Source: an uncultured Bacteroidales bacterium
GTDB lineage: Bacteria > Bacteroidota > Bacteroidia > Bacteroidales > UBA3663
Reading direction: 5' to 3'
Length of the DNA stretch: 33,967 nt
Assembly: GCA_905236195.1 (NCBI GenBank)
Contig: CAJOOX010000039.1
Span: forward strand, 1 to 33,967
The number at the start of each line of letters is the position of its first letter. The stretch's first letter is position 1. Positions 12,601 to 33,967 of the stretch are shown piece after piece. The translations under genes and the position numbers were made by a program. The notes beneath the pieces are model-generated. The model was not told where the DNA came from. It searched no databases and saw only the letters and a program-made list of their open reading frames with translations.

Positions 12601-15600
12601 CACGTTCAGGAAAGTGTTTACGGCGCCGGTCGCGGTGTGGCCTATCGAGCCAATAGCGAGAACGCCGACATCAACGATGTCCGTCAGATGGCTGCCATCT
12701 ACGGTTCTGCGAATATCCACGTTTCGGGAGACGCACTGTTTGACGAACCGATCTACGGCGGTGGTATGGCCGGCACGGTTTTCAAGACCGGCGAACTTCC
12801 GGAATACGAGGACGGCTGTGCCCACATCGACATCGAAGGCGGACGTTTCCGCAACGCCATCTACGGCGGTGGAAACGGTCTGTTCTCCACCGGACAGAAT
12901 ACCACCCACAAAGGATCGGCCGACATTGAAGGCGACACCTGGATTTATATCCGCGGCGGCGAGTTCGCGTGGTCTGACGAAAAAAACTTCTTCGAGACTG
13001 ACCGTCTCTATAACATAGTGGGAGGCGGACGCCGCTTCTCGGTTGTTCACGGCAATACCCACATTGAAGCCTATCGCTCACTCTTCTCCGAATCGTTCAT
13101 CAGGGAAGCCGGCATCAGCCATTGGGATTACAGCAAGCTCTGGAACAAGCAGTTCTCTCTCATGGGAGGCGGCTACGGCAGTTCTGCCCGCGTAATGGGT
13201 GATACATATGTCACGCTCGATGTCAAGGACGATATCGACGAAAAGGCTGCCCACCACATGTACTTCGGTGTCAGCGGTCGCAACAGGGAATTCGACAGCG
13301 ACGAACCCCGCATGATGCCCCACGTTTCGTTCATCGATGTGCTCGGAGGCGGTTTCACGGGTGCTGTCCACGGTTCGACCCACATCACCATGAAGGGCAA
13401 TACCCTGGTCCGCAATATCTACGGCGGAAGTGTCTACGGCAAGGTGGGGCTGCGCGACTCCCTGCTCAACGAATCCGACAAACTCATCTCCACCAACACG
13501 CGCACCTATACAACCGGAACATACATCAATGTTCTCTCGGGCCTGGCCTACAATGTATTCGGAGGCGGTTTCATGGGAGACGTGACGGGCGAGACGCATG
13601 TCACCATCGGTTCCCAGACCGATGCTGAAGCCAACAAACGGCTCTTCCTGGCTTCGGTTTACGGAGGAAATGACATGAGCGGAAAAATTGCAGGAAGCAA
13701 CAACGAGAACTATGGTGTCAATCTCGACATCTGGGGCGGTACCATCCGTCACAGCGTCTATGGTGCCGGCAACGGACACCTGAGCACCATGCATATTCCC
13801 ACACCCTTCGATACCACGACGACGATTATCACCCTCTTCAATCCCGACGCACATGAATTTGCACTGCCTCATGTGGCTTGCACCAGGATTCGCATGGCCG
13901 GCATTGACGAGAACAACCGTGTGATGCTGGAAGGCTCGTTCTTCGGCGGTGGCAACTGTGCTTCTGTCGGCATCTTCAAGCGCGACTCTCTCTTTGCCGA
14001 CAACAACTTCGGAGCCGAACGCCAAGTACCAGTGCCAAACCGCGGACGTATCTACATCAACCTGGGTTCCCACGTCATGATGCGTTCGTTCTTCATGGGT
14101 TCCGACGGCAAGGGGTTGCTCAAGAACATCCCCTACCACAAACATGCAGGCAAATGGATCAAGGGCTTCCGTTCCAACGAGGACTTCCAGCACTACTGCT
14201 CGATGATTGACTTTGCAGGCATGCCTCAGCTTACCTTCAATGCCGACAACTCATTCCACAACAACCATCCGATCATCGACTTCTTCGGTGACCGCCGCGA
14301 ATTCGAGACTCCCGGAGAAATGGATGCCCGGGATATTGACATCAGCGTATTCTTCGGTGGCAGTAACCGGGGTTCGATGACGTCCGACTCCACTTATATT
14401 TTGACGTTGCCCCCAGGCCTCACCATCCACAAGTCGGTGACAGGCGGTTGCAACAATGCCTATCTCTCCTACACCGAGACCGAAGGCCTCGATATGGGTG
14501 TCAAGCGTGAGCGCATCGGCGGGTTCATCCCCATGAACCTCAACACTCCGCAGTACCACCGCATGCAGATCAACGTGTTCAATAAATTCGAACCCGTAAC
14601 CTACAAAGTCAACCCTACGACTGGCAAAACCAAATTCTACGGCTGCAATATGTATGCGGGTTGCTTCTACAGAGGCATCATCTACGGTGCTTCGTCTATC
14701 AATTTCCATGCGGATATCGTAGGCGAAGATTCCAACATGTCGGAAGAAGGCCCCATCTTTAACGCCTCCAACTGGCTGAACACCGACGTCGGCATCCTCT
14801 ACGGCGGCGGATACGGCGACTCAACCGAGGTCATCGGCAACACCTACATTTCCATGACGGGTGCACGTCTCAATGGGACGGTCTGCATCCCCAACCTGCT
14901 TGATGCATTCGGCGGCGGTATGAGAGGTGCTGTGGTGGGACGCACCCAGGTGACCTACGACGGCGAAGTGAAGGGCGTTTCTCCCCTCCTGGCTACGCGC
15001 AAGGGGCTGTGGGGCAAGATGTTCGGCGGCGGACGACAGGGTTCCATCGTCAGCAAGAGCGTCCTCATGCCCGGCCACAAGGCTCCGGCTGGAACCGGCA
15101 CGCGCGTATATGTCTATAGCGGTATCGTCGATCAGGTCTTCGGCGGTGCCCGTATGGCCGACATCGAAGGCGGCACATACGTCGAAATCAACGACCACTC
15201 CAAATACCATTTCCACACCATCGTCCGTAAGGTTTATGGTGGCAACGACGTGGCAGGCTACATCGGAGTGGGCAAGGTGAAGCCCTATCTGGAGGACAAA
15301 CACACCAGTCGCAACACGTTCGTGCGCATCACCGAGGATTCCAAGGCGGACGGATCCTATACCGGATTCCCGTTCGTGGGTGAAGTCTTTGCGGCCGGCA
15401 ACGGCAACTACGGTCCCCACCTCGAGAACTATTCACGCATCCGCCGTTCCTACGAGGGAGGATACCTCCAGACCGACCGCGACTCTGTGCTCCTCACCGG
15501 CAAACGGCGTCCCCATGTCGATTCTGCGTATGTCGAGGTCACAGGCGGTTCCATCATGAACCTCTATGGCGGTGGCAACAACTCGGTGGTCGACAAGGAT

Positions 15601-20549: not shown

Positions 20550-21881
20550 ATGAAAAAGATGATTCTGGCTGCACTCGCAATGGCGGTGTCCTTGCCGGCA
20601 GCAACTTTCACTTATGCGCAGTATGATGACGACATCTACTTCAGCAGCAGTAGCGCCGAGAGGTACGAACCCGTCCGGGAGACAGTGATGGAAGAATGGT
20701 CCACCAATGCCAACAACGACTGGGACATCGACTCCTACAATCGTCGCTCCGCCGATGTGCCCCTCTATTCCGCATCGACTGATGATACCTACACCCAAAG
20801 TGTAACGTCCAACAGGCACCAGAACTTCCAGTTCGGTACCGAACAGGCCTCTGCCGACGACAATATCATCCACGACACAGTCTATGTGGTTGAAAACTAT
20901 TATTATACCGACCGCATCCGCCGGTTCCACAATCCCTGGTGCTCCTACCATATCTGGAATCCCTATTGGGATGTCGCCTACTGGGATCCGTTCTACTGGG
21001 ATTACTGCTACTGGGATCCGTGGTGGTACGTGTCTCCCTCATTCGGGTTCCACTACGGCAGCTGGTACTGGGGTTGGAACTACGGCTACTACACGGGCTG
21101 GTACGGCGGCTGGTATTCCCCCTTCTACCGTCCCTTCCCCCACTATTACGGGCCTTACTATGGTGGCAGCCATCACGGATGGCATTCCCTTCCCAACCAG
21201 GGTCCCCGCACCAACAACATGGGCGGCAGCTATGCCCGCAACAACCGTAACGGTGCACGGCGTCCGGACAACCGTCACTACACGGCCGATGCTCGCCGCA
21301 GCGGCATCGAGGGCGGCGGGGCTTCCTATTCCACTCGCGGGGCTTCTGCCAACCGCAACAGCAACATGCGGATGAGCAACGACCAGATCTCGCGTAACGC
21401 CGGAACCCGCTCCGACAGCCGCAACCTCACCACCGGTGGAACTACCGTTCGCAGTAACCGCGGTGAAAACTACACCCGTTCCGCTGCAACCGTTGCCAAC
21501 CGGGCCCAGGCCAACAACAGCAATGCGCGCCGGCAGGCCAATGGCGTACGCCAGAACAGCAGCGGACGCACCTACCGCTCTACCGAACGCGCCGCTTCCA
21601 GCAGCAATTCGTTCAATCGCAGTACCGCGACCCGGTCCTCTTCCTACCGCAGCGGCTCATCGCGTTCCTACAACAACGCGTCCAGCTCCAGCAACAACTC
21701 CAGCAACAGCTCCAGCAGCTCTTCTACCCGTTCCTACACGCCTTCCAACTCGTCGTCTTCCTCCTACTCCGGCGGAAGCTACTCTGGTGGCCGTTCCAGC
21801 GGAAGCAGCGGAAGCTTCGGTGGTCGATCCGGCGGTAGTAGCGGAAGCTTCGGTGGTCGCTCCGGCGGCGGTCGTCGTTAA
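20550..21881 (+). CDS. Secreted low-complexity protein with a signal peptide, an extreme Trp/Tyr-rich block and a Ser/Arg/Asn/Gly-rich disordered C-terminal half
   Basis: The signal peptide is MKKMILAALAMAVSLPAATFTYAQ. The aromatic block is WNPYWDVAYWDPFYWDYCYWDPWWYVSPSFGFHYGSWYWGWNYGYYTGWYGGWYSPFYRPFPHYYGPYYGG. About 220 aa rich in S, R, N, G, T and A follow, ending GGRSSGSSGSFGGRSGGSSGSFGGRSGGGRR. A promoter box lies upstream and the gap to the next gene is short (41 nt to the ATG at 21923). Confidence 0.78.
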   Translation: MKKMILAALAMAVSLPAATFTYAQYDDDIYFSSSSAERYEPVRETVMEEWSTNANNDWDIDSYNRRSADVPLYSASTDDTYTQSVTSNRHQNFQFGTEQASADDNIIHDTVYVVENYYYTDRIRRFHNPWCSYHIWNPYWDVAYWDPFYWDYCYWDPWWYVSPSFGFHYGSWYWGWNYGYYTGWYGGWYSPFYRPFPHYYGPYYGGSHHGWHSLPNQGPRTNNMGGSYARNNRNGARRPDNRHYTADARRSGIEGGGASYSTRGASANRNSNMRMSNDQISRNAGTRSDSRNLTTGGTTVRSNRGENYTRSAATVANRAQANNSNARRQANGVRQNSSGRTYRSTERAASSSNSFNRSTATRSSSYRSGSSRSYNNASSSSNNSSNSSSSSSTRSYTPSNSSSSSYSGGSYSGGRSSGSSGSFGGRSGGSSGSFGGRSGGGRR

Positions 21882-25902: not shown

Positions 25903-25940
25903 GAAAATCACCTCGATTTTCCCTTTCTTTTTTATTTTTT
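25903..25940 (+). terminator. Candidate rho-independent terminator after the helicase gene
   Basis: GAAAATC-acctc-GATTTTC forms a 7-bp AT-rich stem (25903-25909 / 25915-25921), followed by a long T-rich tract (ccctttcttttttattttttcgctttttt). Confidence 0.4.
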
Positions 25941-25951
25941 CGCTTTTTTCT

Positions 25952-25982
25952 TTTGTCATATCGTCTTAGTGTCCTATCTTTG
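25952..25982 (+). promoter_or_regulatory. Candidate promoter of the dual-ABC/GntR/efflux operon (-33 TTTG, -7 TATCTTTG)
   Basis: TTTG at 25952-25955 and TATCTTTG at 25975-25982 have a 19-nt spacer, ~34 nt upstream of the ATG at 26016. Confidence 0.55.
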
Positions 25983-25983
25983 C

Positions 25984-26010
25984 AGTGTACTAATTCACTA
26001 ATACACTAAT
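25984..26010. promoter_or_regulatory. Candidate operator, an inverted repeat AGTGTA-N12-TACACT overlaid on three 8-bp-phased ACTAAT direct repeats; possible binding site for the operon-encoded GntR
   Basis: AGTGTA at 25984-25989 and TACACT at 26002-26007 are reverse complements. ACTAAT occurs at 25989-25994, 25997-26002 and 26005-26010. The element lies between the -7 box and the start codon and contains the GT...AC cores typical of GntR-family operators. Confidence 0.3.
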
Positions 26011-26015
26011 TAAAT

Positions 26016-26852
26016 ATGATTGAACTGAATGATTTGCGTTACGGATACTACAGGCATCAGCCCGTGCTGCGAGGCATCTCGTTGAGTCTGCCCGAAGGCC
26101 ACATCTACGGTCTGCTCGGCAAGAACGGCGTCGGCAAATCCACCCTGCTCAAGATTCTCTGCGGCTCCCTTATCGGCGAAGGTGAATACACGGTGGCTGG
26201 CTACAATCCCCGCCGGCAGCATCCCGCCATGCTTGAGAAGATACGTCTTGTGCCCGAGGCTGAGGCCATCCTGCCCGTTGCCGTCGAGGATCTCGCGCGT
26301 GTCACGGCACCCTTCTACCCCACTTGGAACCAGAGCATCTTCGAGAGCGCCCTCAACGAGTTCCAGGTGCCCCGCAACAAGCAGCTCACCACCCTCTCGC
26401 TCGGTCAGCAGAAGAAAGCGCTCATCTCTCTCTCGCTCGCCTGCAATACTCCTTATTTATTAATGGATGAACCCACCAACGGTCTCGACATCCCTTCCAA
26501 GAGCATTTTCCGCCGGCTGGTAGCCGGCCTCTGCGACGAGGGCAAGACCGTCATCATCTCCACCCACCAGGTCGATGACATCGACTCTCTCATCGACAGG
26601 ATTGTGATTCTCGAGAACGAAGGCGTCCTCCTCAATGCCTCGATTGACGAGGTGTCCGGGCGGCTCGCTTTCCGCCATGCCGGCGAGGGCGACGAGGTCC
26701 TCTACACCGAGGGTTCTCCTGTGGGACCATGGAGTGTCGTGGTGCGCCGTCCCGACGAACCCGAGACTTCGGTCAATATGAAGATGCTCTTCAATGCCGT
26801 CATCTCCCACAAGGACCGCATCCGCACCCTTTTCTCCCCTCTTGAGGACTGA
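26016..26852 (+). CDS. ABC transporter ATP-binding protein (ABC-2/YtrB-like)
   Basis: The ORF has Walker A GKNGVGKSTLL, the signature LSLGQQKK, Walker B LLMDEPTNGLD and the H-loop ISTHQ. Confidence 0.92.
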   Translation: MIELNDLRYGYYRHQPVLRGISLSLPEGHIYGLLGKNGVGKSTLLKILCGSLIGEGEYTVAGYNPRRQHPAMLEKIRLVPEAEAILPVAVEDLARVTAPFYPTWNQSIFESALNEFQVPRNKQLTTLSLGQQKKALISLSLACNTPYLLMDEPTNGLDIPSKSIFRRLVAGLCDEGKTVIISTHQVDDIDSLIDRIVILENEGVLLNASIDEVSGRLAFRHAGEGDEVLYTEGSPVGPWSVVVRRPDEPETSVNMKMLFNAVISHKDRIRTLFSPLED

Positions 26853-26864
26853 TTTTCAACCAGC

Positions 26865-27758
26865 ATGAATACAAACGCTATGAAACAGAATACTTCCCTT
26901 CAATGGTCCCGTATCAGGAACCTCCTGTGCTACGACTGGGCTGTCGATAAAGGCAAAATCAAATTCACCCTGGCCATCGTCGTCGGCCTCTATGCCGCCC
27001 TCTTCATCATGGCCTACTGGAATCAGACTTCCATGGGTCTCCTTCCCATGACGCCCCAGTCCGGCGAGGCGCTTGTGACCTTCGCCAACGTCAGCGTCAT
27101 GAACTATTTTGAGTATGCCACCATGATTGTGGGCATCCTCACCACTGTCATTCTCCACCGCAAGTTCACCAATCCCCAGACCTCTCTCCAGTATCTGGCA
27201 CTCCCCGGGTCGCGCATCGAGAAATACATCGTCATGCTTGCCGACTTCGCATTCGTCGTCATCGGCATGCAGGTGCTCTATCTCGTCGTCTATGCCGTCT
27301 CCATGCTCATCTGCCAGCTCACCTACCCCGAGTTCTCTTGGTGGATGAATCCCTGGAACAGTCTCAACATGGCCAAGAAACTCATGAGTGTCACCGAGTC
27401 CGGCGAGAATCAGTTTGATGTGATTCACACCTCCGTGATGCGCCTCTTTATTTGGATGACTCCCGTCATTTCTTTCGGCACCTTCGGCCTCTGGTGTGTG
27501 GTCAATATGCTGTTCAAACACAACGGCATCCTCAAGTCCATCGGCGTCTTCCTGCTGGCCTATGTCTTCCTCGTCATTGTCAGCATGATTGTCATGGTCG
27601 GTGTCGTGGCATCCTTCGCCGAGCATCCCGAACTGCACGCCCCCGCCCTCCACGTTCTCGCCACTGTAATCAAAGTCATCCTCTGGCTCCAGATTCCTCT
27701 GGCCCTTCTTTTCCAATGGATTTTCTATCGTCAAATCGCTAACCGTCAGGCCAAATGA
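26865..27758 (+). CDS. Polytopic membrane protein of unknown family (probable permease partner of the upstream ABC ATPase)
   Basis: The 297-aa ORF has about six hydrophobic segments. It starts 12 nt after the ATPase stop, and its own stop overlaps the next start (ATGA). No motif was recognised by eye. Confidence 0.78.
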   Translation: MNTNAMKQNTSLQWSRIRNLLCYDWAVDKGKIKFTLAIVVGLYAALFIMAYWNQTSMGLLPMTPQSGEALVTFANVSVMNYFEYATMIVGILTTVILHRKFTNPQTSLQYLALPGSRIEKYIVMLADFAFVVIGMQVLYLVVYAVSMLICQLTYPEFSWWMNPWNSLNMAKKLMSVTESGENQFDVIHTSVMRLFIWMTPVISFGTFGLWCVVNMLFKHNGILKSIGVFLLAYVFLVIVSMIVMVGVVASFAEHPELHAPALHVLATVIKVILWLQIPLALLFQWIFYRQIANRQAK

Positions 27759-28093
27759 AATATCTTGATGCGATAGGTTACGTCCTCCTCGTGGCTGGCA
27801 TCCTCTGCATGCTTCTCTGGCCTGCAGGCGGTCCGTGGATATTCTCTGTCGGTGCGGCCATGGTGGCCATCGACCACCTTACCCAGGCCTACAAGGGCAA
27901 CAACCTGCGCCTGCGCCGCATGAGCCGTATCCGCGCCATCTGTGGCATCTGCTACGTTATCGCCGCGTTCTATGTCTTCCGCGGTGAGGGACGCTACTGG
28001 CTCCCCGTCACCATCGTGGGGGCCGTCCTCGAACTCTACTCTCAATACGTAATAACAAAAGAAAACCGCAAAGACAATGGAATTTCAGAATAA
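27755..28093 (+). CDS. Small integral membrane protein (112 aa)
   Basis: The ORF has three to four hydrophobic segments (YVLLVAGILCMLLW, IFSVGAAMVAI, ICGICYVIAAFYVF, LPVTIVGAVLELY). Its start is coupled to the upstream gene (ATGA overlap) and its codon usage matches the neighbours. Confidence 0.65.
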   Translation: MKYLDAIGYVLLVAGILCMLLWPAGGPWIFSVGAAMVAIDHLTQAYKGNNLRLRRMSRIRAICGICYVIAAFYVFRGEGRYWLPVTIVGAVLELYSQYVITKENRKDNGISE

Positions 28094-28469
28094 CAACCCC
28101 ATCTTCCTCCAGATTGTCGACTGGATCTGTGACAAGGTGCTGAAGGGGGAACTCCAGATCGGACAGCAGCTCCCCTCCGTACGCGATCTGGCCGTCCAGC
28201 TGGAGGTCAATCCCAACACGGTGCAGCGTTCCATCGAACGTCTCATCGCCCAGGACATTGTCGTAACCCAGCGAGGAAAGGGCAACTACCTCACTGCCGA
28301 TGCGTTTTCACGCATCGAGGACTTCCGCCGACAGCGACTCCTCGACGAAGCCCTGCCCAAACTCGCCGACGAGATGATGCTCCTCGGTGTCAAACCCGCC
28401 GACGTGGCCGATGCCCTCGGCAATATCATCAGCCGGCGTCAACAAGCCATAACTGCTCCTGCTCAATGA
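28077..28469 (+). CDS. GntR family transcriptional regulator, short YtrA-like subtype (winged-helix domain only)
   Basis: The 130-aa ORF has the GntR helix-turn-helix LPSVRDLAVQLEVNPNTVQRSIERLIAQDIVVTQRGKGNYLT and no large effector domain. It overlaps both neighbours (17 nt upstream; ATGA downstream). Confidence 0.9.
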   Translation: MEFQNNNPIFLQIVDWICDKVLKGELQIGQQLPSVRDLAVQLEVNPNTVQRSIERLIAQDIVVTQRGKGNYLTADAFSRIEDFRRQRLLDEALPKLADEMMLLGVKPADVADALGNIISRRQQAITAPAQ

Positions 28470-29143
28470 TCGACCTGGTTAACATCAACAAGACCTATCC
28501 CTCGGCTACGCCGCTCCACGTCCTCAAGGGCATCAACCTCCACATCGGAGAGGGCGAACTCGTCAGCATCATGGGGGCTTCAGGATCCGGCAAATCGACC
28601 CTGCTCAACATCCTGGGCATTCTCGACAACTACGACACCGGCGAGTATCACCTCAACGGAACCCTCATACGCAACCTCAGCGAGACACGTGCGGCCGAAC
28701 TCCGCAACCGCCTCATCGGATTCGTTTTCCAGAGCTTTAACCTCATCGGCTTCAAGAATGCGATGGAGAATGTAGCTCTTCCCCTCTACTATCAGGGGGT
28801 CTCCCGACGCCGTCGCAACGAACTCGCCCTCGAATACCTCCGCATGATGGGACTCGGCGACTGGGCCGACCACTACCCCTCCGAGATGTCCGGCGGTCAG
28901 AAACAGCGCGTCGCCATCGCCCGGGCTCTCATCGCCCGGCCCAAGATTATCCTCGCCGACGAACCCACCGGTGCCCTCGATTCCCACACCACCCAGGAGG
29001 TCATGGACATCCTGCGCCGTGTCAACCGCGAACAGAACATGACCGTCATCATCGTAACCCACGAGGCCGACATCGCCGCCCAGACCGACCGCCGGATCCA
29101 CATCCACGACGGCCGTATCGAGTCCGGAGCTTTCAGGGGATAA
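28466..29143 (+). CDS. ABC transporter ATP-binding protein, MacB/LolD/FtsE-like
   Basis: The ORF has Walker A GASGSGKSTLLNILG, the Q-loop, the signature MSGGQKQRVAIARAL, Walker B ILADEPTGALD and the H-loop IVTHE. Confidence 0.93.
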   Translation: MIDLVNINKTYPSATPLHVLKGINLHIGEGELVSIMGASGSGKSTLLNILGILDNYDTGEYHLNGTLIRNLSETRAAELRNRLIGFVFQSFNLIGFKNAMENVALPLYYQGVSRRRRNELALEYLRMMGLGDWADHYPSEMSGGQKQRVAIARALIARPKIILADEPTGALDSHTTQEVMDILRRVNREQNMTVIIVTHEADIAAQTDRRIHIHDGRIESGAFRG

Positions 29144-29150
29144 GCCCCCC

Positions 29151-29186
29151 CCCATCAACCCCATTAAACCCATAAAACCCATAAAA
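29151..29186 (+). repeat. Four tandem 9-bp units CCCATNAAN (cccatcaac cccattaaa cccataaaa cccataaaa)
   Basis: Read directly. The array fills the gap between the ATPase stop (29143) and the next ATG (29198). It contains no G and is followed by aaattaaaaat. Confidence 0.9.
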
Positions 29187-29197
29187 AAATTAAAAAT

Positions 29198-29950
29198 ATG
29201 TACAACTTCACAGTTTCCGAGGTGCTCGACCAGGCTTGGGCCCTCACCAAAAAGCACGGCCTTCTTCTGGCCCTCATTCTTCTCGTCATCAGCCTCGTAG
29301 AAGGCGCTTTCACCTCCGTCAACCCCGCTGATTACACTGAGTTCGTTTCTAAGTATCAGAGCGGCAATCCCGATCCCCAGGCCATCATGCAGGACTACTC
29401 TGCCCTGCTTTCCCAGTCGGCCTTCTCGGGAGGTTCTCTGCTCGGTATGCTCCTCTCCCTTGTTCTCACTTGCGCCCTCACGGCCATCATGCTCTCCCTC
29501 GCCAAGGGCAAGACTTCCGAGATTAGCATCGAACCCTGCAAAATGCCCGTCATGACTTATGTCAAGTACATTGCATGGCAGCTCCTCTACGGCATCATCG
29601 TCTGCCTCGGCATCTGCCTCTGCATCATCCCCGGCCTTTGGTTGGGCGCACGTCTCAGCACGGTTTCCTACTACCTCATCGACAATCCCGAAATCGGATT
29701 CGGTGAAGCCATCAGCCGTGGTTGGAACAGCACCAGCGGACATGTCATGGGTCTCATCGGCCTCGGCATTCTGTGCTTCTTCATCGTTATTGCCGGTCTC
29801 CTGCTCTGCTGTGTCGGCATCTATTTCACCGAGGTCATTGCCCACTTCGCCATCATCATCGTTTATCTCGTCCTCTCCGGCTTCTACAACCGTCCCGCCG
29901 ACGAGTCCTCCGATGTCGTTGAGACCATCGAAGTGGAAGAGATTAAATAA
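29198..29950 (+). CDS. Integral membrane protein of unknown function (topology reminiscent of DUF975/GDPD-membrane-like proteins) inserted inside the MacB-type operon
   Basis: The 250-aa ORF has four to five hydrophobic segments. The central motif YYLIDNPEIGFGEAISRGWNSTSGHVMGL resembles the conserved loop of DUF975-like proteins, an assignment made from memory only. The C-terminal tail is acidic. Confidence 0.75.
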   Translation: MYNFTVSEVLDQAWALTKKHGLLLALILLVISLVEGAFTSVNPADYTEFVSKYQSGNPDPQAIMQDYSALLSQSAFSGGSLLGMLLSLVLTCALTAIMLSLAKGKTSEISIEPCKMPVMTYVKYIAWQLLYGIIVCLGICLCIIPGLWLGARLSTVSYYLIDNPEIGFGEAISRGWNSTSGHVMGLIGLGILCFFIVIAGLLLCCVGIYFTEVIAHFAIIIVYLVLSGFYNRPADESSDVVETIEVEEIK

Positions 29951-29983
29951 CCCATAAAGCCCATAAAACCCATCCGCCCCGTC
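29951..29983 (+). repeat. Three tandem 9-bp units CCCATNNNN plus a partial unit (cccataaag cccataaaa cccatccgc cccgtc)
   Basis: Read directly. The array fills the entire gap between the stop at 29950 and the ATG at 29984. Confidence 0.9.
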
Positions 29984-31228
29984 ATGCTCTTTGACATCCT
30001 CGGAGAAATCTACATCTCCATGTCCCGCAACAAACTGAGGATAGCTCTCACAGGATTCTCCATCGCATGGGGCATCTTCATGCTCATCGTGCTCCTCGGT
30101 GCCGGCAACGGGTTGTTGAACGGCATGATGTCCAATTTCGGTTCCGACGCCCAGAACTTCATGCGACTCTATCCCGGCACCACCGACACGGAGTGGCATG
30201 GATGGGCCAAGGGACGCAGAATACAGTTCGACGACCGCACCGCTGAATTCCTGCAGCAGACCTTTCCCGACCACATCGGGGCCGTCACTCCCAAGGTGTA
30301 CGACTCCAAGGTCATTGCCTGTGGCAACGAATACGTCTCCAGTGATGTCAATGGTGTGGCCGCCGGCTTGTTGGATAATGGCGAACGCATTGTCGCCGGA
30401 CGCCGTATCAACAGCAGCGACATCTCCGGTCGCCGCAAGGTCATCCTCCTCAAGGACCAATCCCTGCCCTCCCTTTTCCCCGGCTGCGAACCCGAGCAGG
30501 TCCTCGGGCGCTGGGTCAATGTCGCGGGCATCCCTTTCCAGGTGGTGGGCATCTATCATCCCCGTGGCGGCGACAGCGGTCACAAAAGCTACATTCCCCT
30601 CTCCACTTCCATCGCGCTCTTCTCGCCCGACGGTCATTACGACCGCCTCGAACTCGAACTGCACAGACTCCATTCCAAAGAGGAGAACGAAGCCTTCAAC
30701 AAGGAGGTGCGTGCTGCCCTCGCCCGCCTCTACGACTACAACCCCGAAGACCACGCCGTCTGGATATGGAACAACCACGAGAACTATCTCCAGACACGTA
30801 GCATCTTCACTGCCATTCAGTCGTTCATCTGGATCATAGGCCTCGCAACACTCATCGCCGGTATTGCAGGCATCTCCAACATCATGATGATTACGGTACG
30901 CGAACGTACCCGCGAAATCGGAATACGCAAGGCGCTCGGTGCCTCCCCCCGTTCCATCCTCTGGCTCGTCCTCCTCGAGGCCGTCTTCATCACCATGCTT
31001 TTCGGCTACATCGGAATGTTCCTCGGCATCGCCCTCACCCAGGGCATCGATGCCCTCATGGCCCCTTCCGACGACAAGCAGTTCACGATGTTCCTCCACC
31101 CCACTGTGGGCCTCGGCATCGTCATGGCTGCCAACCTCGTCATGATTATCGCCGGCATCATCGCAGGATATATCCCTGCCAAACGTGCCGTAAGTATTAA
31201 ACCCGTTGAAGCCCTCGCCGCACAATGA
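29984..31228 (+). CDS. ABC transporter permease, MacB-type (MacB periplasmic core domain plus FtsX domain)
   Basis: The 414-aa ORF has an N-terminal TM segment, a large periplasmic domain and a C-terminal FtsX region (ISNIMMITVRERTREIGIRKALGASPRSILWLVLLEA). Confidence 0.92.
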   Translation: MLFDILGEIYISMSRNKLRIALTGFSIAWGIFMLIVLLGAGNGLLNGMMSNFGSDAQNFMRLYPGTTDTEWHGWAKGRRIQFDDRTAEFLQQTFPDHIGAVTPKVYDSKVIACGNEYVSSDVNGVAAGLLDNGERIVAGRRINSSDISGRRKVILLKDQSLPSLFPGCEPEQVLGRWVNVAGIPFQVVGIYHPRGGDSGHKSYIPLSTSIALFSPDGHYDRLELELHRLHSKEENEAFNKEVRAALARLYDYNPEDHAVWIWNNHENYLQTRSIFTAIQSFIWIIGLATLIAGIAGISNIMMITVRERTREIGIRKALGASPRSILWLVLLEAVFITMLFGYIGMFLGIALTQGIDALMAPSDDKQFTMFLHPTVGLGIVMAANLVMIIAGIIAGYIPAKRAVSIKPVEALAAQ

Positions 31229-32487
31229 TTGATCTCGATTTCTTTGCCGAGATATGGGAGACCATACGACGCAACCGCAGCCGATCCATCCTCACCGCCT
31301 TCGGCGTCTTCTGGGGTCTCCTCATGCTCATCATCCTCGTCGGGGTGGGAACGGGACTCAACAACGGTCTCATCAAGGGGCTCCAGGGTGTCCCGGCCAG
31401 CTCCCTTTACTTCGGAACTGACCATACTTCCCTGCCCTACAAGGGGTTCCAGAAGGGACGCCGTTTCAATATCGACAATGACGATGTCGATGCCCTCCGC
31501 CGCGAATTCAGCGATGTAGCAGAATATATCTCACCCATCAACTTCGTGGGGAGCAACAAATTCTCGGTGGGCGACCGTGCCGGCGACTATCAACTCGTGG
31601 GCATCACCCCAGACTACTTCCACACCATGCCCCTTGCCCTCGACATGGGTCGCACGCTCAATGTCAACGACATCCGCGAACGGCGTAAGGTATGTGTCAT
31701 CGGACGGCGCATGTACGACGAACTCTTCCCCGGCGAACCCGACATCGCGGGACAGCTCATCAAGGCCGGTTCCGTCTATTATCAGGTCGTGGGGGTAATC
31801 CACCGCCTCAGCGACAACATCAACATCGGGTTCAATGCCGACGAGACGCTCATGATGCCCATCACCACCGCCCAGCTCAACTACGGACAGGGCAACACCG
31901 TCCATTTCATGTCCCTATCCCTCCGTGACGGCTATTCCATGGCCGGACACCAGGACCGCATCATCGGACTCCTCAAACAGCGCCACATCGTCCATCCCGA
32001 CGACCCCACGGCATTCTGGTCGTTCAATGTCGAGGAGATTATCGGACAGTTCTCCATGCTCTTCGGCGGTGTCAACATCCTCATCTGGATTGTAGGCATC
32101 GGTTCCCTCCTCGCCGGTCTCATCGGCATCTCCAACATCATGCTCGTTACCGTGCGCGAACGCACCCAGGAAATCGGCATCCGGCGTGCCCTCGGTGCCC
32201 GTCCGTCCACCATCACCCGCCAGATTCTCTCCGAGACCCTCCTGCTCACCTTCGCCGCCGGCATCGGCGGGCTCCTCATCGGGGTTTGGATTATCTCTGC
32301 CGTCGGTTCCTTCATGGCCAGCCAGCCGCCTTCCGCCGAACCCTCCCTCATGGGTCCGCCCCAGATCCCCTTCTCCGTCGCCGTTGCCGCCTTCATCATC
32401 CTCATCCTCGGCGGACTCCTTGCCGGATGGCTCCCCGCACGCCGCGCCATGCGAATCAAAGCCATCGACGCCCTCCGCGAAGAATAA
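31225..32487 (+). CDS. ABC transporter permease, MacB-type (second paralogue)
   Basis: The 420-aa ORF has the same architecture (ISNIMLVTVRERTQEIGIRRALGARPSTITRQILSETL). Its start overlaps the upstream gene (ATGA). Confidence 0.92.
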   Translation: MIDLDFFAEIWETIRRNRSRSILTAFGVFWGLLMLIILVGVGTGLNNGLIKGLQGVPASSLYFGTDHTSLPYKGFQKGRRFNIDNDDVDALRREFSDVAEYISPINFVGSNKFSVGDRAGDYQLVGITPDYFHTMPLALDMGRTLNVNDIRERRKVCVIGRRMYDELFPGEPDIAGQLIKAGSVYYQVVGVIHRLSDNINIGFNADETLMMPITTAQLNYGQGNTVHFMSLSLRDGYSMAGHQDRIIGLLKQRHIVHPDDPTAFWSFNVEEIIGQFSMLFGGVNILIWIVGIGSLLAGLIGISNIMLVTVRERTQEIGIRRALGARPSTITRQILSETLLLTFAAGIGGLLIGVWIISAVGSFMASQPPSAEPSLMGPPQIPFSVAVAAFIILILGGLLAGWLPARRAMRIKAIDALREE

Positions 32488-32530
32488 AGAAACTTAGATT
32501 TCGAAATATTGCCCCTATTTAAACAAAAAT

Positions 32531-33637
32531 ATGAAAAAATCACTCCGTATCCTCGGCATCATCCTTGCCGCCGTCATCATCATCGGCACCTTCTGGTTCC
32601 TCTGGCGCCAGTCCCAGCCCAAAGAGGTCTCCTTCGAAATCCTGTTGCCCGAACGGCGCACCCTCTACCGCAAGACTGTGGCCACCGGCAAAGTCGAACC
32701 CCGCGACGAGGTCAACGTCAAACCCCAGATCCAGGGCATCATCTCCGAAATCTACGTCCACCCGGGAGACCGCATTCTCGCCGGCGAACCCATCGCTCGC
32801 ATCAAGGTCATCCCCGAGATGGCGTCCCTCAACAACCACCAGTCGCAGGTGCGAACGGCTCAGCTCACCCTCGAGGAAACCGAACGCGAGCATGCCCGCA
32901 TCGAGAACCTCTACAGCCGCAAGGTCGTTTCCCGCGAGGAATATGAGAAGTCCCTCAACAACCTCCTGAAGGTGCGCGAACAGGCGCAGGCTGCCCAGGA
33001 CCAGCTCGACATCGCCGTCAGCGGAATCTCCAAACGTTCCGGCAAGGTCAACACCACCCTCGTTACCTCAACCGTCAACGGAACCGTACTCGATGTCCCC
33101 GTCAAGATTGGTACCGCTGTCATTTCCACCAGTTCCTTCTCCGATGGTACCACCGTGGCCATCGTGGCTGATATGAGCGACATCATCTTCCGCGGCAACA
33201 TCGACGAGACCGAGGTCGGACGTCTCCGCTCTGGCATGGGCATCAATCTCACCATCGGCGCCCTCCAGAACATCGTCCTCCCCGCCCGTCTCGAGTACAT
33301 CTCCCCCAAGGGCTCGGAATCCAACGGAGCCGTTCTCTTCGAGATCAAAGCCGCCGCAACCATCCCCGACACTCTCCTCATCCGTGCCGGATATAGTGCC
33401 AACGCCGAGATTATCCTCGACAGCCGCGACAGTGTACTTTCCATCCCCGAGAGCGCTGTCGAGTTCATGGCCGACTCCGCCTTCGTATATAAACTCACCT
33501 CCGACCCCGACGACAGGCCTCAGACATTCTCCCGTCAGCCCATAACTATCGGCCTCAGCGACGGCATCTACGTTCAGGTCACCGACGGCATCAGTCCCGC
33601 CGACCGTCTCCGTGGCAATGAGCAACGCCCCCGATAA
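32531..33637 (+). CDS. Efflux transporter periplasmic adaptor subunit (HlyD/MacA-type membrane fusion protein)
   Basis: The 368-aa ORF has an N-terminal TM anchor, a lipoyl/barrel-sandwich motif (VKPQIQGIISEIYVHPGDRILAGEPIARI), a coiled-coil hairpin and beta-barrel segments. Confidence 0.92.
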   Translation: MKKSLRILGIILAAVIIIGTFWFLWRQSQPKEVSFEILLPERRTLYRKTVATGKVEPRDEVNVKPQIQGIISEIYVHPGDRILAGEPIARIKVIPEMASLNNHQSQVRTAQLTLEETEREHARIENLYSRKVVSREEYEKSLNNLLKVREQAQAAQDQLDIAVSGISKRSGKVNTTLVTSTVNGTVLDVPVKIGTAVISTSSFSDGTTVAIVADMSDIIFRGNIDETEVGRLRSGMGINLTIGALQNIVLPARLEYISPKGSESNGAVLFEIKAAATIPDTLLIRAGYSANAEIILDSRDSVLSIPESAVEFMADSAFVYKLTSDPDDRPQTFSRQPITIGLSDGIYVQVTDGISPADRLRGNEQRPR

Positions 33638-33649
33638 TTAATCCCAAAG

Positions 33650-33694
33650 GCCATCAGACCCATTAAGCCCATTAAGCCCATCAACCCCATCCAC
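33650..33694 (+). repeat. Five tandem 9-bp units (gccatcaga cccattaag cccattaag cccatcaac cccatccac)
   Basis: Read directly. The array lies in the gap between the adaptor stop (33637) and the TolC-family ATG (33700). Confidence 0.9.
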
Positions 33695-33699
33695 AGTCT

Positions 33700-33967
33700 A
33701 TGGTTAATAAATTCCCTGTCACCCTCCTTCTCCTGTTCGCAGCTGCCTGCGGATCCCTCCAGGCCCAGTCCGTGTGGTCCCTGCGTCAGTGCATCGACTA
33801 TGCCCTGGCCCATAACATCCGCCTGCAGCAACAGCAGATTGACGTTCAGAATACCGAAATCCAGCTGGAGACCTCCCGCTACCAGCGACTGCCCGACCTC
33901 AATGCCAGCCTCGGACAGGGATTCGGTTTCGGACGCAGCACCGCTCGCGACGGATCCACCGTCGACC
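33700..33967 (+). CDS. TolC family outer-membrane efflux protein (N-terminal 89 codons; continues past the right window edge)
   Basis: Hand translation from the ATG at 33700 gives MVNKFPVTLLLLFAAACGSLQAQSVWSLRQCIDYALAHNIRLQQQQIDVQNTEIQLETSRYQRLPDLNASLGQGFGF... This is a signal peptide followed by the typical OEP/TolC N-terminal helix motif. It is not in the ORF track because it has no in-window stop. Confidence 0.85.
   Translation, partial: MVNKFPVTLLLLFAAACGSLQAQSVWSLRQCIDYALAHNIRLQQQQIDVQNTEIQLETSRYQRLPDLNASLGQGFGFGRSTARDGSTVD

What the first reader, a model, noticed from the sequence alone, without database searches (positions are those of the whole stretch)
29144..29197. Family of tandem 9-bp CCCATNAAN arrays at intercistronic junctions of the MacB-like operon (site A)
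Three gene junctions in this operon, and nowhere else in the 34-kb window that I could find, are filled by head-to-tail 9-mers with the core CCCAT. Site A is 29151-29186 (4 units), site B is 29951-29983 (3 units plus a partial) and site C is 33650-33694 (5 units). Each array ends 0-12 nt before the next start codon. All are in the same orientation, contain almost no G, and have no dyad symmetry, so they are not REP/BIME-like hairpins or terminators. A 9-bp unit without spacers is far too short for CRISPR. C/A-rich, G-poor, unstructured leaders would suit Shine-Dalgarno-independent initiation in Bacteroidota, where A-rich unstructured upstream regions favour initiation. That does not explain the strict 9-nt periodicity or the conserved CCCAT core, which suggest a repeated protein- or RNA-binding unit or a slippage-prone simple-sequence repeat that tunes downstream gene expression.
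Basis: seen in the sequence. Interest (0 to 1): 0.7.

Follow-up and report, generated by a model that had tools for sequence, protein, structure and literature searches.

The report
CCCAT nine-base repeats before start codons
The three CCCAT arrays are real and belong to a widespread family of 9-base tandem repeats, which I found described nowhere, that gut and rumen Bacteroidales carry in the short gaps just before start codons, most likely as slippage-made, structure-free, AUG-free spacers rather than as a dedicated binding site.

Summary
CCCATNNNNCCCAT occurs 8 times in the window, all on the + strand at the three named junctions, against 0.10 expected.

The arrays are not special to this operon. 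78 of the 120 loci are Bacteroidota, mostly rumen Prevotellaceae and other Bacteroidales. Some rumen phage contigs carry the arrays too.

In those genomes the C-rich strand is almost always the mRNA strand: 38 arrays versus 2 within 50 nt of a start codon. 29 of the 38 end within 15 nt of the ATG, and the last unit sometimes supplies the start codon (CCC-ATG).

Strains 99.2% identical to the window differ by one unit at site A. A related species (86-91% identical) has unrelated 7-9-bp repeats at the same junctions.

Array-preceded initiation regions are predicted to be almost unstructured (median -0.8 kcal/mol, against -4.7 for other starts).

Best reading: slippage-born simple-sequence repeats, kept in the orientation that gives a G-poor, AUG-free, open leader for Shine-Dalgarno-independent initiation. 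This is a new member of a known kind, alongside the TAACTGA and GGGNATC repeat families. Function is inferred, not shown.

The parts
25975..25983 (+). Bacteroidota-type -7 promoter motif (TATCTTTGC) upstream of the first gene (ATG 26016). It is the only such motif upstream of the gene row that contains the arrays.
   Evidence: TANNTTTGC occurs 9 times against 2.2 expected. Seven of the nine lie just upstream of, and on the same strand as, a called gene start. None lies at sites A-C.
25989..26011 (+). A different short tandem repeat (ACTAATNC x2.9) in the leader of the first gene. It shows the phenomenon is not limited to CCCAT.
   Evidence: TRF; upstream sequence listing.
28466..29143 (+). ABC transporter ATPase gene (MacB-type, separate ATPase), ending in TAA upstream of site A.
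   Evidence: Pfam ABC_tran 1.7e-30.
29145..29153 (+). C9 homopolymer run that leads into array A. Its length varies between strains.
   Evidence: Sequence. A 3-nt deletion and other indels appear in metagenome contigs. It is shorter in L122.
29151..29186 (+). Array A: 4 units of CCCATNAAN.
   Evidence: L122, 99.2% identical, has 5 units here.
29187..29197 (+). A-rich stretch directly before ATG 29198. It falls inside the block that still aligns with species lacking the CCCAT array, so it is probably the initiation region proper.
   Evidence: blastn alignments to L183 and L184 start at 29184 and 29173; junction listing.
29198..29950 (+). DUF975-like membrane protein gene, flanked by arrays A and B.
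   Evidence: Weak Pfam DUF975 hit. Orthologues at 75% and 69% identity start with the same MYNF... residues.
29951..29983 (+). Array B: 3 units plus CCCGTC. It fills the whole 33-nt gap from TAA to ATG 29984.
   Evidence: One RNA contig spans it (X10, 29150-31220).
29984..32487 (+). Two MacB_PCD/FtsX permease genes (29984-31228 and 31225-32487).
   Evidence: Pfam.
32531..33637 (+). HlyD-family membrane-fusion protein gene, ending in TAA upstream of site C.
   Evidence: Pfam.
33650..33694 (+). Array C: one degenerate unit (GCCATCAGA) plus 4 CCCAT units. It ends 5 nt before ATG 33700.
   Evidence: Identical in L121, which is 99.35% identical overall.
33700..33967 (+). Start of the outer-membrane efflux (OEP/TolC-like) gene; it runs off the window.
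   Evidence: Pfam OEP 9.3e-07.

Best explanation
The arrays are simple-sequence repeats with a 9-bp unit (consensus CCCAT-H-AA-N). They belong to a large family dispersed through gut and rumen Bacteroidales genomes. I propose that they arise and change length by replication slippage in the short non-coding gaps between co-transcribed genes.

They persist almost only in the orientation that puts the C-rich strand into the mRNA. There they form a 30-60-nt G-poor, AUG-free leader with no capacity for secondary structure, running from the upstream stop codon to the next start codon. In Bacteroidota the ribosome does not use Shine-Dalgarno pairing. Initiation is tuned by mRNA structure and by the absence of competing AUGs. 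Such a spacer therefore keeps the downstream start accessible and insulates it from the structured upstream coding sequence.

No sequence-specific reader of CCCAT is required.

Shown: existence, non-randomness, clade-wide distribution, position, orientation, strain polymorphism, turnover between species, low predicted structure, and co-transcription across site B.

Inferred: slippage as the generating process, selection for an open leader, and any effect on translation.
For: 1. Non-random and phased: 8 matches against 0.10 expected.

2. Clade-wide family. The genome scan returned at least 120 loci, against about 4 expected from 19 specified bases in 1.2e12 positions. 78 are Bacteroidota. Array bins in rumen DNA runs have 2-10 times the depth of their flanks, and Logan contigs break there.

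3. Position and orientation in Bacteroidales loci. 68 of 85 arrays lie in the 14% of sequence that is non-coding. Within 50 nt of a start, 38 are sense and 2 antisense (p=1.5e-9). 29 of the 38 end within 15 nt of the ATG, and 5 have the start codon as an in-phase CCC-ATG. In Prevotellaceae trp operons, arrays fill 2-4 junctions per operon from TAA straight to ATG.

4. Slippage-type variation. The window has 4 units at site A, and L122, at 99.2% nucleotide identity, has 5. Other indel alleles appear in metagenome contigs.

5. The unit sequence is dispensable. In L183 (same gene order, 86-91% nt identity) the same junctions hold GATTAYTCN x9, CGATATTN x7 and AACTYTT x4.5. The sampled Bacteroidales loci carry 18.4 other 6-12-bp arrays per 100 kb, against 4.4 in the non-Bacteroidota loci.

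6. Open leaders. For the -40..+20 region, the three window starts fold at 0.0, -4.7 and -2.4 kcal/mol. Across loci the median is -0.8 for array-preceded starts (n=29), -4.7 for other starts (n=248) and -13.2 inside genes (p=1.6e-9). Shuffling the array keeps the leader open (-4.3 against -3.8). Reversing it gives -19.3 and raises upstream AUGs from 6 to 137.

7. Published background. In Flavobacterium johnsoniae initiation is tuned by mRNA structure, and AUG is under-represented near starts in Bacteroidetes (PMC6847099).

8. Downstream genes are diverse and include housekeeping genes: a class II aminoacyl-tRNA synthetase, RuvB, SHMT, PdxA and Trp enzymes. So the arrays are compatible with normal expression and do not mark a regulon.
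Against: No expression data test the effect. The RNA evidence is assembled contigs only.

At site A, a conserved A-rich stretch lies between the array and the ATG. There the array is a spacer upstream of the initiation region, not the region itself.

Other short-repeat families placed before starts do not give significantly more open leaders than repeat-free starts (median -3.9 against -4.7, p=0.07).

G is avoided at unit position 6, the position that would create AUG. This holds equally in arrays far from starts (0.7%) and near them (3%), so it cannot be attributed to start-site selection.

CCC at -3..-1 is the opposite of the A at -3 favoured in F. johnsoniae.

Openness explains composition. 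It does not explain why the same nonamer recurs at many unrelated loci and in several Bacteroidota orders.

In viral contigs my crude gene calls show no orientation bias (13 against 12).

The reversal test is inflated, because leftover sense units pair with the reversed part.
Confidence: 0.5

Rival explanations
1. Passenger repeat. The arrays are neutral or mildly selfish products of a slippage-prone replication system. They bring no benefit. Purifying selection only removes copies in the harmful orientation (upstream AUGs, G-tracts, hairpins) or in coding sequence.
For: The sampled Bacteroidales loci are rich in 6-12-bp repeats of many unit types. Turnover between species is rapid and strains differ. 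Downstream genes show no functional pattern. An orthologue at 69% identity has a repeat-free 113-nt spacer. Reversal would add about 130 upstream AUGs across 39 leaders.
Against: Many arrays fill the gap exactly from stop to start, and some supply the start codon in phase. Array leaders are markedly more open than ordinary leaders of the same loci. Compact phage-like contigs carry several arrays in the stop-array-ATG arrangement. These facts fit use better than mere tolerance, but none is decisive.
Confidence: 0.22
2. Sequence-specific reader. CCCAUNAAN is a repeated binding unit for an RNA-binding protein or an sRNA. Candidates include ribosomal protein S1, a KH, CSD or RRM protein, or an oligomeric ring protein. 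The reader would recruit ribosomes or co-regulate the genes, as was proposed for the TAACTGA repeats of Beggiatoaceae.
For: Seven of nine unit positions are conserved across loci, genomes and several Bacteroidota orders, although the logo is partly fixed by the search pattern. The 9-nt phase is strict. Some phage contigs carry the same unit before ATGs. The published analogue is PMC4679880.
Against: Orthologous junctions work with unrelated units. Several unrelated repeat families occupy the same kind of position within one locus. The genes served have nothing in common. Copy number varies freely from 2 to more than 10. At site A a conserved non-repeat stretch sits between array and ATG. No candidate reader was identified.
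Confidence: 0.13
3. Non-B DNA. At least four C3 tracts with 5-6-nt loops make a G-quadruplex on the template strand, or an i-motif on the coding strand, that modulates transcription through the junction. This was discussed for the GGGNATC repeats of Xanthomonas and Nostoc.
For: All three arrays match G3+N1-7 x4 on the - strand. GGGNATC repeats show the same placement: G-rich strand antisense within 50 bp upstream of ORFs, and between aligned ORFs (PMC4692102). The common 32-nt trp junctions have exactly four C-tracts.
Against: There is no peak at four units. Arrays not forced by the search pattern number 18, 6, 6, 1 and 3 for 2 to 6 units. The ViennaRNA quadruplex model predicts a G4 only for the antisense of site A, with the help of the G9 run, and none for B or C. 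The conserved A, T and AA positions are not needed for a G4. Repeat families without G- or C-tracts occupy the orthologous junctions.
Confidence: 0.06
4. Contingency (phase-variation) switch. Copy-number changes tune or switch expression of the downstream efflux genes, as the AGAT repeats do in the 5' UTR of Moraxella uspA2.
For: Copy number and C-run length differ between near-identical strains at site A. The uspA2 precedent is cited in PMC4679880.
Against: A 9-nt unit cannot shift a reading frame, and the arrays are not between promoter elements. The same family precedes housekeeping genes, not surface or antigen genes. Sites B and C keep the same number of units in the 99% identical strains; B differs only by a C-to-T change.
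Confidence: 0.05
5. Rho loading (rut-like) sites. C-rich, G-poor, unstructured RNA between cistrons would recruit Rho and impose polarity when upstream translation fails.
For: The composition (C 37%, G 9% on the sense strand) and the lack of structure resemble rut sites. This comparison rests on established knowledge of Rho.
Against: Most arrays are 27-45 nt long and flanked by translated sequence. That is shorter than the roughly 60-80 nt of free RNA that Rho needs (established knowledge). RNA contig depth goes up, not down, after site A. One RNA contig spans site B.
Confidence: 0.03

Closest known systems
TAACTGA heptamer direct repeats of marine Beggiatoaceae, some Cyanobacteria and five Bacteroidetes (MacGregor 2015, PMC4679880)
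   Same: Both are tandem direct repeats of a short unit. Both are mostly intergenic, in 'forward' orientation, and lie within a few nucleotides upstream of start codons in regions lacking a Shine-Dalgarno sequence. Downstream genes show no functional pattern. Relatives have the same gene neighbourhood without the repeats.
   Different: The unit here is a 9-mer of different sequence (CCCATNAAN), C-rich and G-poor. The host range is gut and rumen Bacteroidales and some of their phage contigs. Here the whole stop-to-start gap is often made of units, and the last unit can contain the start codon.
GGGNATC / GGGGA(C/T)T quadruplex-forming repeats of Xanthomonas and Nostoc (Rehm et al. 2015, PMC4692102)
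   Same: Both are abundant intergenic simple-sequence repeats that prefer gaps between aligned ORFs. In both, the G-rich strand is antisense within 50 bp upstream of an ORF. Repeats lie between the same genes in related species but vary widely in length and sequence. They are transcribed, and their function is unknown.
   Different: Those are 7-mers with a sharp preference for four units and G4 formation shown in vitro. Here the unit is 9 nt, no peak at four was seen, and predicted G4 stability is marginal.
Long simple sequence repeats with 5-11-nt units (Mrazek et al. 2007, as summarised in PMC4679880), including cyanobacterial STRR heptamers
   Same: This is the general class: arrays of short units, longer than chance allows, sporadically distributed among lineages, mostly non-coding, and attributed to polymerase slippage.
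   Different: According to that summary, the ten genomes richest in 5-11-nt repeats in the survey did not include Bacteroidetes. The STRR comparison rests on my own knowledge; I did not read the primary papers.
SD-independent, G-poor translational leaders such as the CAA-rich omega leader of tobacco mosaic virus, which works in E. coli
   Same: Both are G-poor, C/A-rich, unstructured leaders that contain short direct repeats and act without Shine-Dalgarno pairing. This is the functional analogy for the mechanism proposed here.
   Different: Omega is a single viral 5' leader with demonstrated enhancer activity. The arrays here are a genomic repeat family with no functional test.

Membership tests
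Long simple sequence repeat (unit 5-11 nt) | Head-to-tail copies of one short unit, more than chance gives | tested here: met
   8 phased pairs against 0.10 expected. TRF finds period 9 with 2.8-5 copies at all three sites.
Long simple sequence repeat (unit 5-11 nt) | Copy number varies between close relatives (slippage signature) | tested here: met
   Site A has 4 units in the window and 5 in L122 (99.2% nt identity). Further indel alleles appear in runs X1 and X3. B and C keep their unit number in those strains.
Long simple sequence repeat (unit 5-11 nt) | Enriched in non-coding DNA | tested here: met
   68 of 85 CCCAT arrays lie in the 14% non-coding fraction of 65 Bacteroidales loci, using my own codon-model gene calls.
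Start-codon-proximal oriented repeats (TAACTGA type, PMC4679880) | Forward orientation, within a few to tens of nt upstream of a start codon | tested here: met
   38 sense against 2 antisense within 50 nt. 29 of 38 lie within 15 nt. The window sites are 11, 6 (0 if the partial unit is counted) and 5 nt from the ATG.
Start-codon-proximal oriented repeats (TAACTGA type, PMC4679880) | Unit is the heptamer TAACTGA | tested here: not met
   The unit is CCCATNAAN, 9 nt. It is the same kind of element, not the same family.
G-quadruplex-forming repeats (GGGNATC type, PMC4692102) | Four or more G3 tracts with loops of 1-7 nt on one strand | tested here: met
   On the - strand A, B and C each have at least 4 G3+ tracts with 5-6-nt loops.
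G-quadruplex-forming repeats (GGGNATC type, PMC4692102) | Clear preference for four units | tested here: not met
   Arrays not forced by the search pattern number 18, 6, 6, 1 and 3 for 2 to 6 units.
G-quadruplex-forming repeats (GGGNATC type, PMC4692102) | The quadruplex actually forms | tested here: inconclusive
   The ViennaRNA gquad model (RNA parameters) predicts a G4 only for the antisense of A, using the G9 run, and not for B or C. DNA biophysics is not testable here.
REP/BIME-type palindromic elements | Imperfect dyad symmetry (hairpin) | tested here: not met
   No inverted repeats at A, B or C. Sense-strand MFE is 0 to -4.7 kcal/mol. Elsewhere, inverted pairs of the same unit do make hairpins (L083, -68.5 kcal/mol).
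CRISPR array | Repeats of roughly 21-48 bp separated by unique spacers | tested here: not met
   9-bp units with no spacers.
Intrinsic terminator | GC-rich hairpin followed by a T run | tested here: not met
   None at the arrays. An RNA contig reads through site B.
Known structured RNA family (Rfam) | Match to a curated covariance model | tested here: not met
   No match at gathering score anywhere in the window. Only two sub-threshold chance hits occur, both away from the arrays.
Contingency locus (phase-variable SSR) | Association with surface or antigen genes; repeat number switches expression | tested here: inconclusive
   The association is not met: downstream genes are diverse housekeeping genes. 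Switching cannot be tested with assembled contigs.
Rho utilisation site | About 60-80 nt of C-rich, G-poor, unstructured untranslated RNA that causes termination | tested here: inconclusive
   The composition fits. The length is too short at B (33 nt) and borderline at A and C. There is no sign of RNA loss after the arrays. Termination is not testable.

The most novel reading that the evidence does not exclude
CCCAUNAAN repeats are a dedicated, sequence-specific ribosome-recruiting signal of gut Bacteroidales and their phages. They would functionally replace the Shine-Dalgarno sequence, be read by a ribosomal or ribosome-associated RNA-binding protein at 9-nt register, and have copy number set the output of internal cistrons.
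Probability: 0.1. Interest if true: 0.85.

Novelty: new member of a known kind. Interest (0 to 1): 0.45.

Why it matters
How Bacteroidota choose and tune start sites without Shine-Dalgarno pairing is still being worked out, and almost entirely in Flavobacterium johnsoniae. A repeat family that writes whole stop-to-start spacers in rumen Prevotellaceae and relatives offers a natural, easily manipulated test bed. Varying the number of units (0 to n), reversing them or shuffling them would show what an SD-blind ribosome needs upstream of AUG.

There are practical consequences too. The arrays break short-read assemblies of rumen metagenomes. They can mislead gene callers, because two antisense frames stay open through them. 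They also provide hypervariable strain markers.

If the repeats prove to be passengers only, they still document an unusually slippage-prone intergenic landscape in an ecologically dominant gut clade.

Tried and rejected
- Read-through or N-terminal extension. Site B is in frame with both neighbours, but A and C are not, and the 31-32-nt trp junctions are not multiples of 3. Rejected.
- Internal promoter in the arrays. There is no TAnnTTTG motif and no sigma-70-like site on the + strand near A-C. The 2-3-fold RNA depth step at site A remains unexplained.
- Known RNA family. None found.
- REP, terminator and CRISPR. Rejected.
- Pairing with 16S rRNA, or resemblance to the initiator tRNA anticodon loop. 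Considered from memory only. AUGGG is not in the 3' tail, and I dropped the idea as untestable here.
- Functional regulon. Pfam on 20 downstream genes showed no theme.
- Peak at four units as a G4 signature. Not seen.
- Exact-sequence look-ups of two window proteins found no record, so the source genome and family could not be named.
- Raw RNA reads for 5' ends were not available; only assembled contigs were.
- Two literature searches for the motif or for Prevotella 9-bp repeats found nothing relevant.
- Viral contigs turned out heterogeneous. They include giant-virus and coding repeats, and my host-trained gene calls gave no orientation bias. I use only the individual stop-array-ATG cases, such as L155.
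Full report

Yes.

- Site A is TAA-G-C9 merging into CCCATCAAC CCCATTAAA CCCATAAAA CCCATAAAA (29151-29186). It is followed by AAATTAAAAAT and then ATG 29198.
- Site B is TAA, CCCATAAAG CCCATAAAA CCCATCCGC (29951-29977), CCCGTC, then ATG 29984.
- Site C is GCCATCAGA CCCATTAAG CCCATTAAG CCCATCAAC CCCATCCAC (33650-33694), AGTCT, then ATG 33700.

The phased pair CCCATNNNNCCCAT occurs 8 times. All 8 are on the + strand and all lie at these three sites. Dinucleotide-preserving shuffles give 0.10 on average and never more than 2. CCCAT alone is at chance level, 90 found against 90.2 expected, so the signal is the 9-nt register. Tandem Repeats Finder reports period-9 arrays at the same three places.

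The arrays have no inverted repeats. They have no terminator-like or sigma-70-like sites and no Rfam match.

**2. Setting in the window**

Pfam and the ORF map give one row of co-directional genes from 26016 to the end of the window:

- ABC ATPase
- a membrane protein
- a DUF308-like protein
- a GntR regulator
- a MacB-type ABC ATPase (28466-29143)
- [site A]
- a DUF975-like membrane protein (29198-29950)
- [site B]
- two MacB_PCD/FtsX permeases
- a HlyD-type membrane-fusion protein (32531-33637)
- [site C]
- an outer-membrane factor

The Bacteroidota -7 promoter motif TAnnTTTG(C) is enriched in the window, 9 found against 2.2 expected. Seven of the nine copies sit just upstream of, and on the same strand as, a called gene start; the other two are near the divergent region at 20.4 kb. 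One copy lies at 25975, before the first gene of the row. None lies at A, B or C.

The window is held at 60-81% of sampled words by goat, sheep and cattle gut metagenome runs, and at about 70% by metatranscriptome runs. I could not name the family.

The start codons after A and B appear correct. In the orthologues, the gene after A begins with the same four codons and the gene after B begins with ATG CTC.

**3. The arrays are a clade-wide family, not an operon feature**

I scanned one genome per species (185,579 species, 596 Gb) with CCCATNAANCCCATNAANCCCAT. With 19 specified bases, about 4 matches are expected by chance (my arithmetic). Of the 120 loci, 59 are gut or rumen Bacteroidales: Prevotella, Prevotellaceae, Bacteroidaceae and unclassified Bacteroidales MAGs from cattle, sheep, goat, buffalo, deer and yak, plus Hallella multisaccharivorax DSM 17128. 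Another 19 are other Bacteroidota: Saprospiraceae, Kapaibacterium, Lentimicrobiaceae, Geofilum, Maribacter and others. Among the 42 non-Bacteroidota hits, arrays with G at position 6 (CCCATGAAN) are common and several look coding; I did not count them.

Three further lines agree. In rumen DNA runs the array bins have 2-10 times the depth of their flanks, the loose ends lead into many different sequences, and Logan contigs break at the arrays. A scan of viral contigs gave 59 stretches. These are heterogeneous, but several phage-like contigs show the same stop-array-ATG layout. One example is L155, with six arrays on one strand in 14.8 kb.

**4. Anatomy of the family**

The unit logo from 96 arrays is C C C A T [C/T/A] A A N. 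It is partly fixed by the search pattern, but positions 6 and 9 were free. G is 1-10% at position 6 and 16-33% at position 9.

I called genes in 65 Bacteroidales loci with a self-trained codon model. It reproduces my manual map of the window apart from one region and one start. On those calls:

- 68 of 85 arrays lie in the 14% of sequence that is non-coding.
- Within 50 nt of a start codon, 38 arrays have the C-rich strand as the sense strand and 2 the opposite (p=1.5e-9).
- Within 50 nt of a stop codon, the counts are 40 against 7.
- 29 of the 38 start-proximal arrays end within 15 nt of the ATG.
- In five of them the start codon is the in-phase CCC-ATG of a final unit.

A 95% sense bias exceeds what I would expect from gene-strand bias alone. 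That expectation is an inference from general knowledge, so the orientation probably tracks transcription rather than replication.

Three Prevotellaceae trp operons make the point visually. In L025 and L066 the junctions trpE>G, trpD>C, trpC>F and trpF>A are filled by units. Five of these eight junctions run from TAA to an in-phase CCC-ATG, and five are 31-32 nt long. In L105 the array-filled junctions are trpE>G and trpG>D instead.

Where two arrays of the same unit face each other between convergent genes, they form a long hairpin (L083, -68.5 kcal/mol, z=-8.2). That is a second mode of use, and it is absent from this window.

**5. Dynamics**

L122 and L121 are 99.2% and 99.35% identical to the window over 7.0 and 4.8 kb.

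- At site A, L122 has five units (CAAC x3, TAAA, AAAA), against four in the window (CAAC, TAAA, AAAA x2). It also has a shorter C run.
- Site B has one C>T change.
- Site C is identical.

Metagenome contigs add further indel alleles at site A.

L183 comes from a related species. Its genes are 86-91% identical at the nucleotide level, and its DUF975-like protein is 75% identical. It has the same gene order, but other repeats at the same junctions:

- GATTAYTCN x9 at the site A equivalent
- CGATATTN/CGTTATTA x7 at FtsX2>MFP
- AACTYTT x4.5 at the site C equivalent

L184 and L123 (69% and 68% protein identity) lack the MacB genes altogether and have a repeat-free 113-nt spacer before the DUF975-like gene. 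So the position and the tandem-repeat character persist, while the unit sequence does not.

This is general. Besides the CCCAT arrays, the gut Bacteroidales loci carry 18.4 other arrays of 6-12-bp units per 100 kb, with heptamers the most common. The non-Bacteroidota loci of the same scan carry 4.4 per 100 kb. Several families recur across MAGs: GAATAMTCR, CGAAATAT and GGGTTAT. One caveat: the loci were chosen for having a CCCAT array, so they may over-represent repeat-rich genomes.

**6. What the arrays do to the mRNA**

For the -40..+20 region, the three window starts fold at 0.0, -4.7 and -2.4 kcal/mol. The other starts in the window average -6.1, and internal coding windows average -13.2.

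Across loci the medians are:

- -0.8 kcal/mol for array-preceded starts (n=29)
- -4.7 for other starts with a gap of at least 25 nt (n=248)
- -13.2 inside genes

The difference between array-preceded and other starts has p=1.6e-9. The mean unpaired probability over -20..+10 is 0.78 against 0.60.

Shuffling the array in place keeps the leader open (-4.3 against -3.8). Composition, not periodicity, therefore gives the openness. Reversing the array gives -19.3 kcal/mol and raises the number of upstream AUGs in 39 leaders from 6 to 137. The energy figure is inflated, because leftover sense units pair with the reversed part.

Published work on Flavobacterium johnsoniae shows two relevant things. 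Initiation in this SD-blind phylum is tuned by mRNA structure, and AUG is under-represented near starts (PMC6847099).

**7. Transcription**

One metatranscriptome contig spans site B (X10, 29150-31220). Another runs from the membrane-fusion gene into site C (X8, 32146-33690). So the arrays appear to be transcribed within polycistronic RNA, although DNA carry-over in these libraries cannot be excluded.

RNA contig depth is about 4-9 from 26016 to 29143. It is 11-26 from 29172 to about 30600-31200 in all four runs. DNA depth, by contrast, is flat across site A: 178 against 182-200 in X2, and 119 against 123 in X6. Contig depth is a poor measure, and no canonical promoter motif lies nearby. I leave this step unexplained. 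An internal start or a processing/stability boundary at site A are both possible.

**8. Explanation and rivals**

Best reading (about 0.5): these are slippage-born 9-bp simple-sequence repeats. They are kept in the sense orientation because there they provide a G-poor, AUG-free, structure-free spacer between the upstream stop and the next start. That is what SD-independent initiation needs. Which steps are shown and which are inferred is set out under the best explanation.

Weak points of this reading:

- At site A a conserved A-rich stretch, not the array, abuts the ATG.
- Other repeat families before starts are not significantly more open than repeat-free leaders (p=0.07).
- G-avoidance at position 6 is the same far from starts.
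- CCC at -3..-1 is unlike the A at -3 preference seen in F. johnsoniae.
- Nothing explains why the same nonamer recurs at many loci and in several Bacteroidota orders.

Rivals:

- Pure passenger repeat, tolerated only in the harmless orientation (0.22).
- A sequence-specific protein or RNA reader (0.13). The conserved unit and strict phase favour it. The unrelated units at orthologous junctions, the coexistence of several families in one locus, and the diverse downstream genes count against it.
- Template-strand G-quadruplex (0.06). The motif and placement match the GGGNATC repeats, but there is no peak at four units and predicted stability is marginal.
- Phase-variation switch (0.05).
- Rho loading site (0.03).

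**9. Comparison with what is known**

Two published families are the closest.

- TAACTGA heptamers lie in forward orientation a few nucleotides before start codons in Beggiatoaceae, some Cyanobacteria and five Bacteroidetes. Their regions lack SD sequences, the downstream genes show no functional pattern, and a translational role was proposed but not tested (PMC4679880).
- GGGNATC/GGGGAYT heptamers occur in Xanthomonas and Nostoc. They lie between aligned ORFs, with the G-rich strand antisense within 50 bp upstream of ORFs. They are variable between related species, and their function is unknown (PMC4692102).

Both fall in the class of long simple sequence repeats with 5-11-nt units defined by Mrazek et al. 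2007, as summarised. The CCCATNAAN arrays share the defining features of that class (see the membership table). They are not members of either named family, because the unit differs. I found no description of this nonamer or of 9-bp repeats in Prevotella. The searched library is not exhaustive.

**10. Verdict**

Novelty: a new member of a known kind. Interest: 0.45. The feature is real, strongly non-random, widespread and apparently undescribed, in an ecologically important clade, and it bears on an open question in translation. But it is the same kind of element as earlier repeat families, and it has no functional test.

Noticed in passing
window 29145-29153: A C9 homopolymer lies between the ATPase stop codon and array A. 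Its length differs in L122 and in metagenome contigs (a 3-nt deletion in X3). Tracts of this kind are classically slippage-prone.
   Followed up: partly
window 28958-30650 (step at about 29150-29190): Metatranscriptome contig depth rises 2-6-fold at site A in four runs, while DNA depth stays flat. No canonical Bacteroidota promoter motif lies within 200 nt upstream. It could be an internal transcript start or a processing/stability boundary.
   Followed up: partly
window 25924-26011: The leader of the first gene of the row holds TTTCTTT x4 (25924-25954), the promoter motif TATCTTTGC (25975) and ACTAATNC x3 (25989-26011) directly before ATG 26016. These are short tandem repeats of other units near a start.
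   Followed up: partly
window 28466-33967 compared with L183, L184, L123: The DUF975-like gene sits between the MacB-type ATPase and its permeases. In species at 68-69% protein identity the MacB genes are all absent, and GntR > DUF975-like > GH127 are adjacent. The efflux genes therefore appear split around a resident gene, or were lost twice.
   Followed up: partly
L183 5907-5983; L095 7668-7760; L053 5397-5474; L123 8019-8065; L054 2531-2600: Other recurrent short-repeat families occur in gut Bacteroidales: the 9-mer GAATAMTCR (in both orientations), the 8-mer CGAAATAT, and the telomere-like 7-mer GGGTTAT (x10, filling a 95-nt gap on the sense strand).
   Followed up: partly
L083 2410-2530; also L067, L118, L109, L071, L028: Inverted pairs of CCCATNAAN arrays occur in six loci and lie between convergent genes in L083. 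The L083 pair folds into a very stable hairpin (-68.5 kcal/mol, z=-8.2), so these pairs may act as bidirectional terminators.
   Followed up: partly
L155 (- strand) 13505-13540 and 12779-12841; L136 3989-4015: In some phage-like contigs a long open frame runs through the array. The array would then encode a Pro-rich PLSPLNPLNP-type stretch, so some arrays may be coding.
   Followed up: partly
window 28580-31225 (- strand): An 881-aa antisense ORF runs through arrays A and B. It was not retained by the codon model in competition with the + strand genes, and two antisense frames stay open through CCCAT arrays. It is probably spurious but could mislead gene callers.
   Followed up: partly
window 9643-17226: A 2527-aa ORF on the + strand has the highest coding score in the window. 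I did not examine it.
   Followed up: no
window 21772-21868 and 28358-28420: There are 33-bp tandem repeats inside coding sequence: 2.8 copies in the gene at 20550-21881 and 1.9 copies in the GntR gene.
   Followed up: no
L105 7404-7545: The trpD>trpC junction of this Prevotella MAG holds three copies of a 32-bp repeat (GTCATCTCGACTAAGCGAAGCGCATGG...) instead of a CCCAT array.
   Followed up: no
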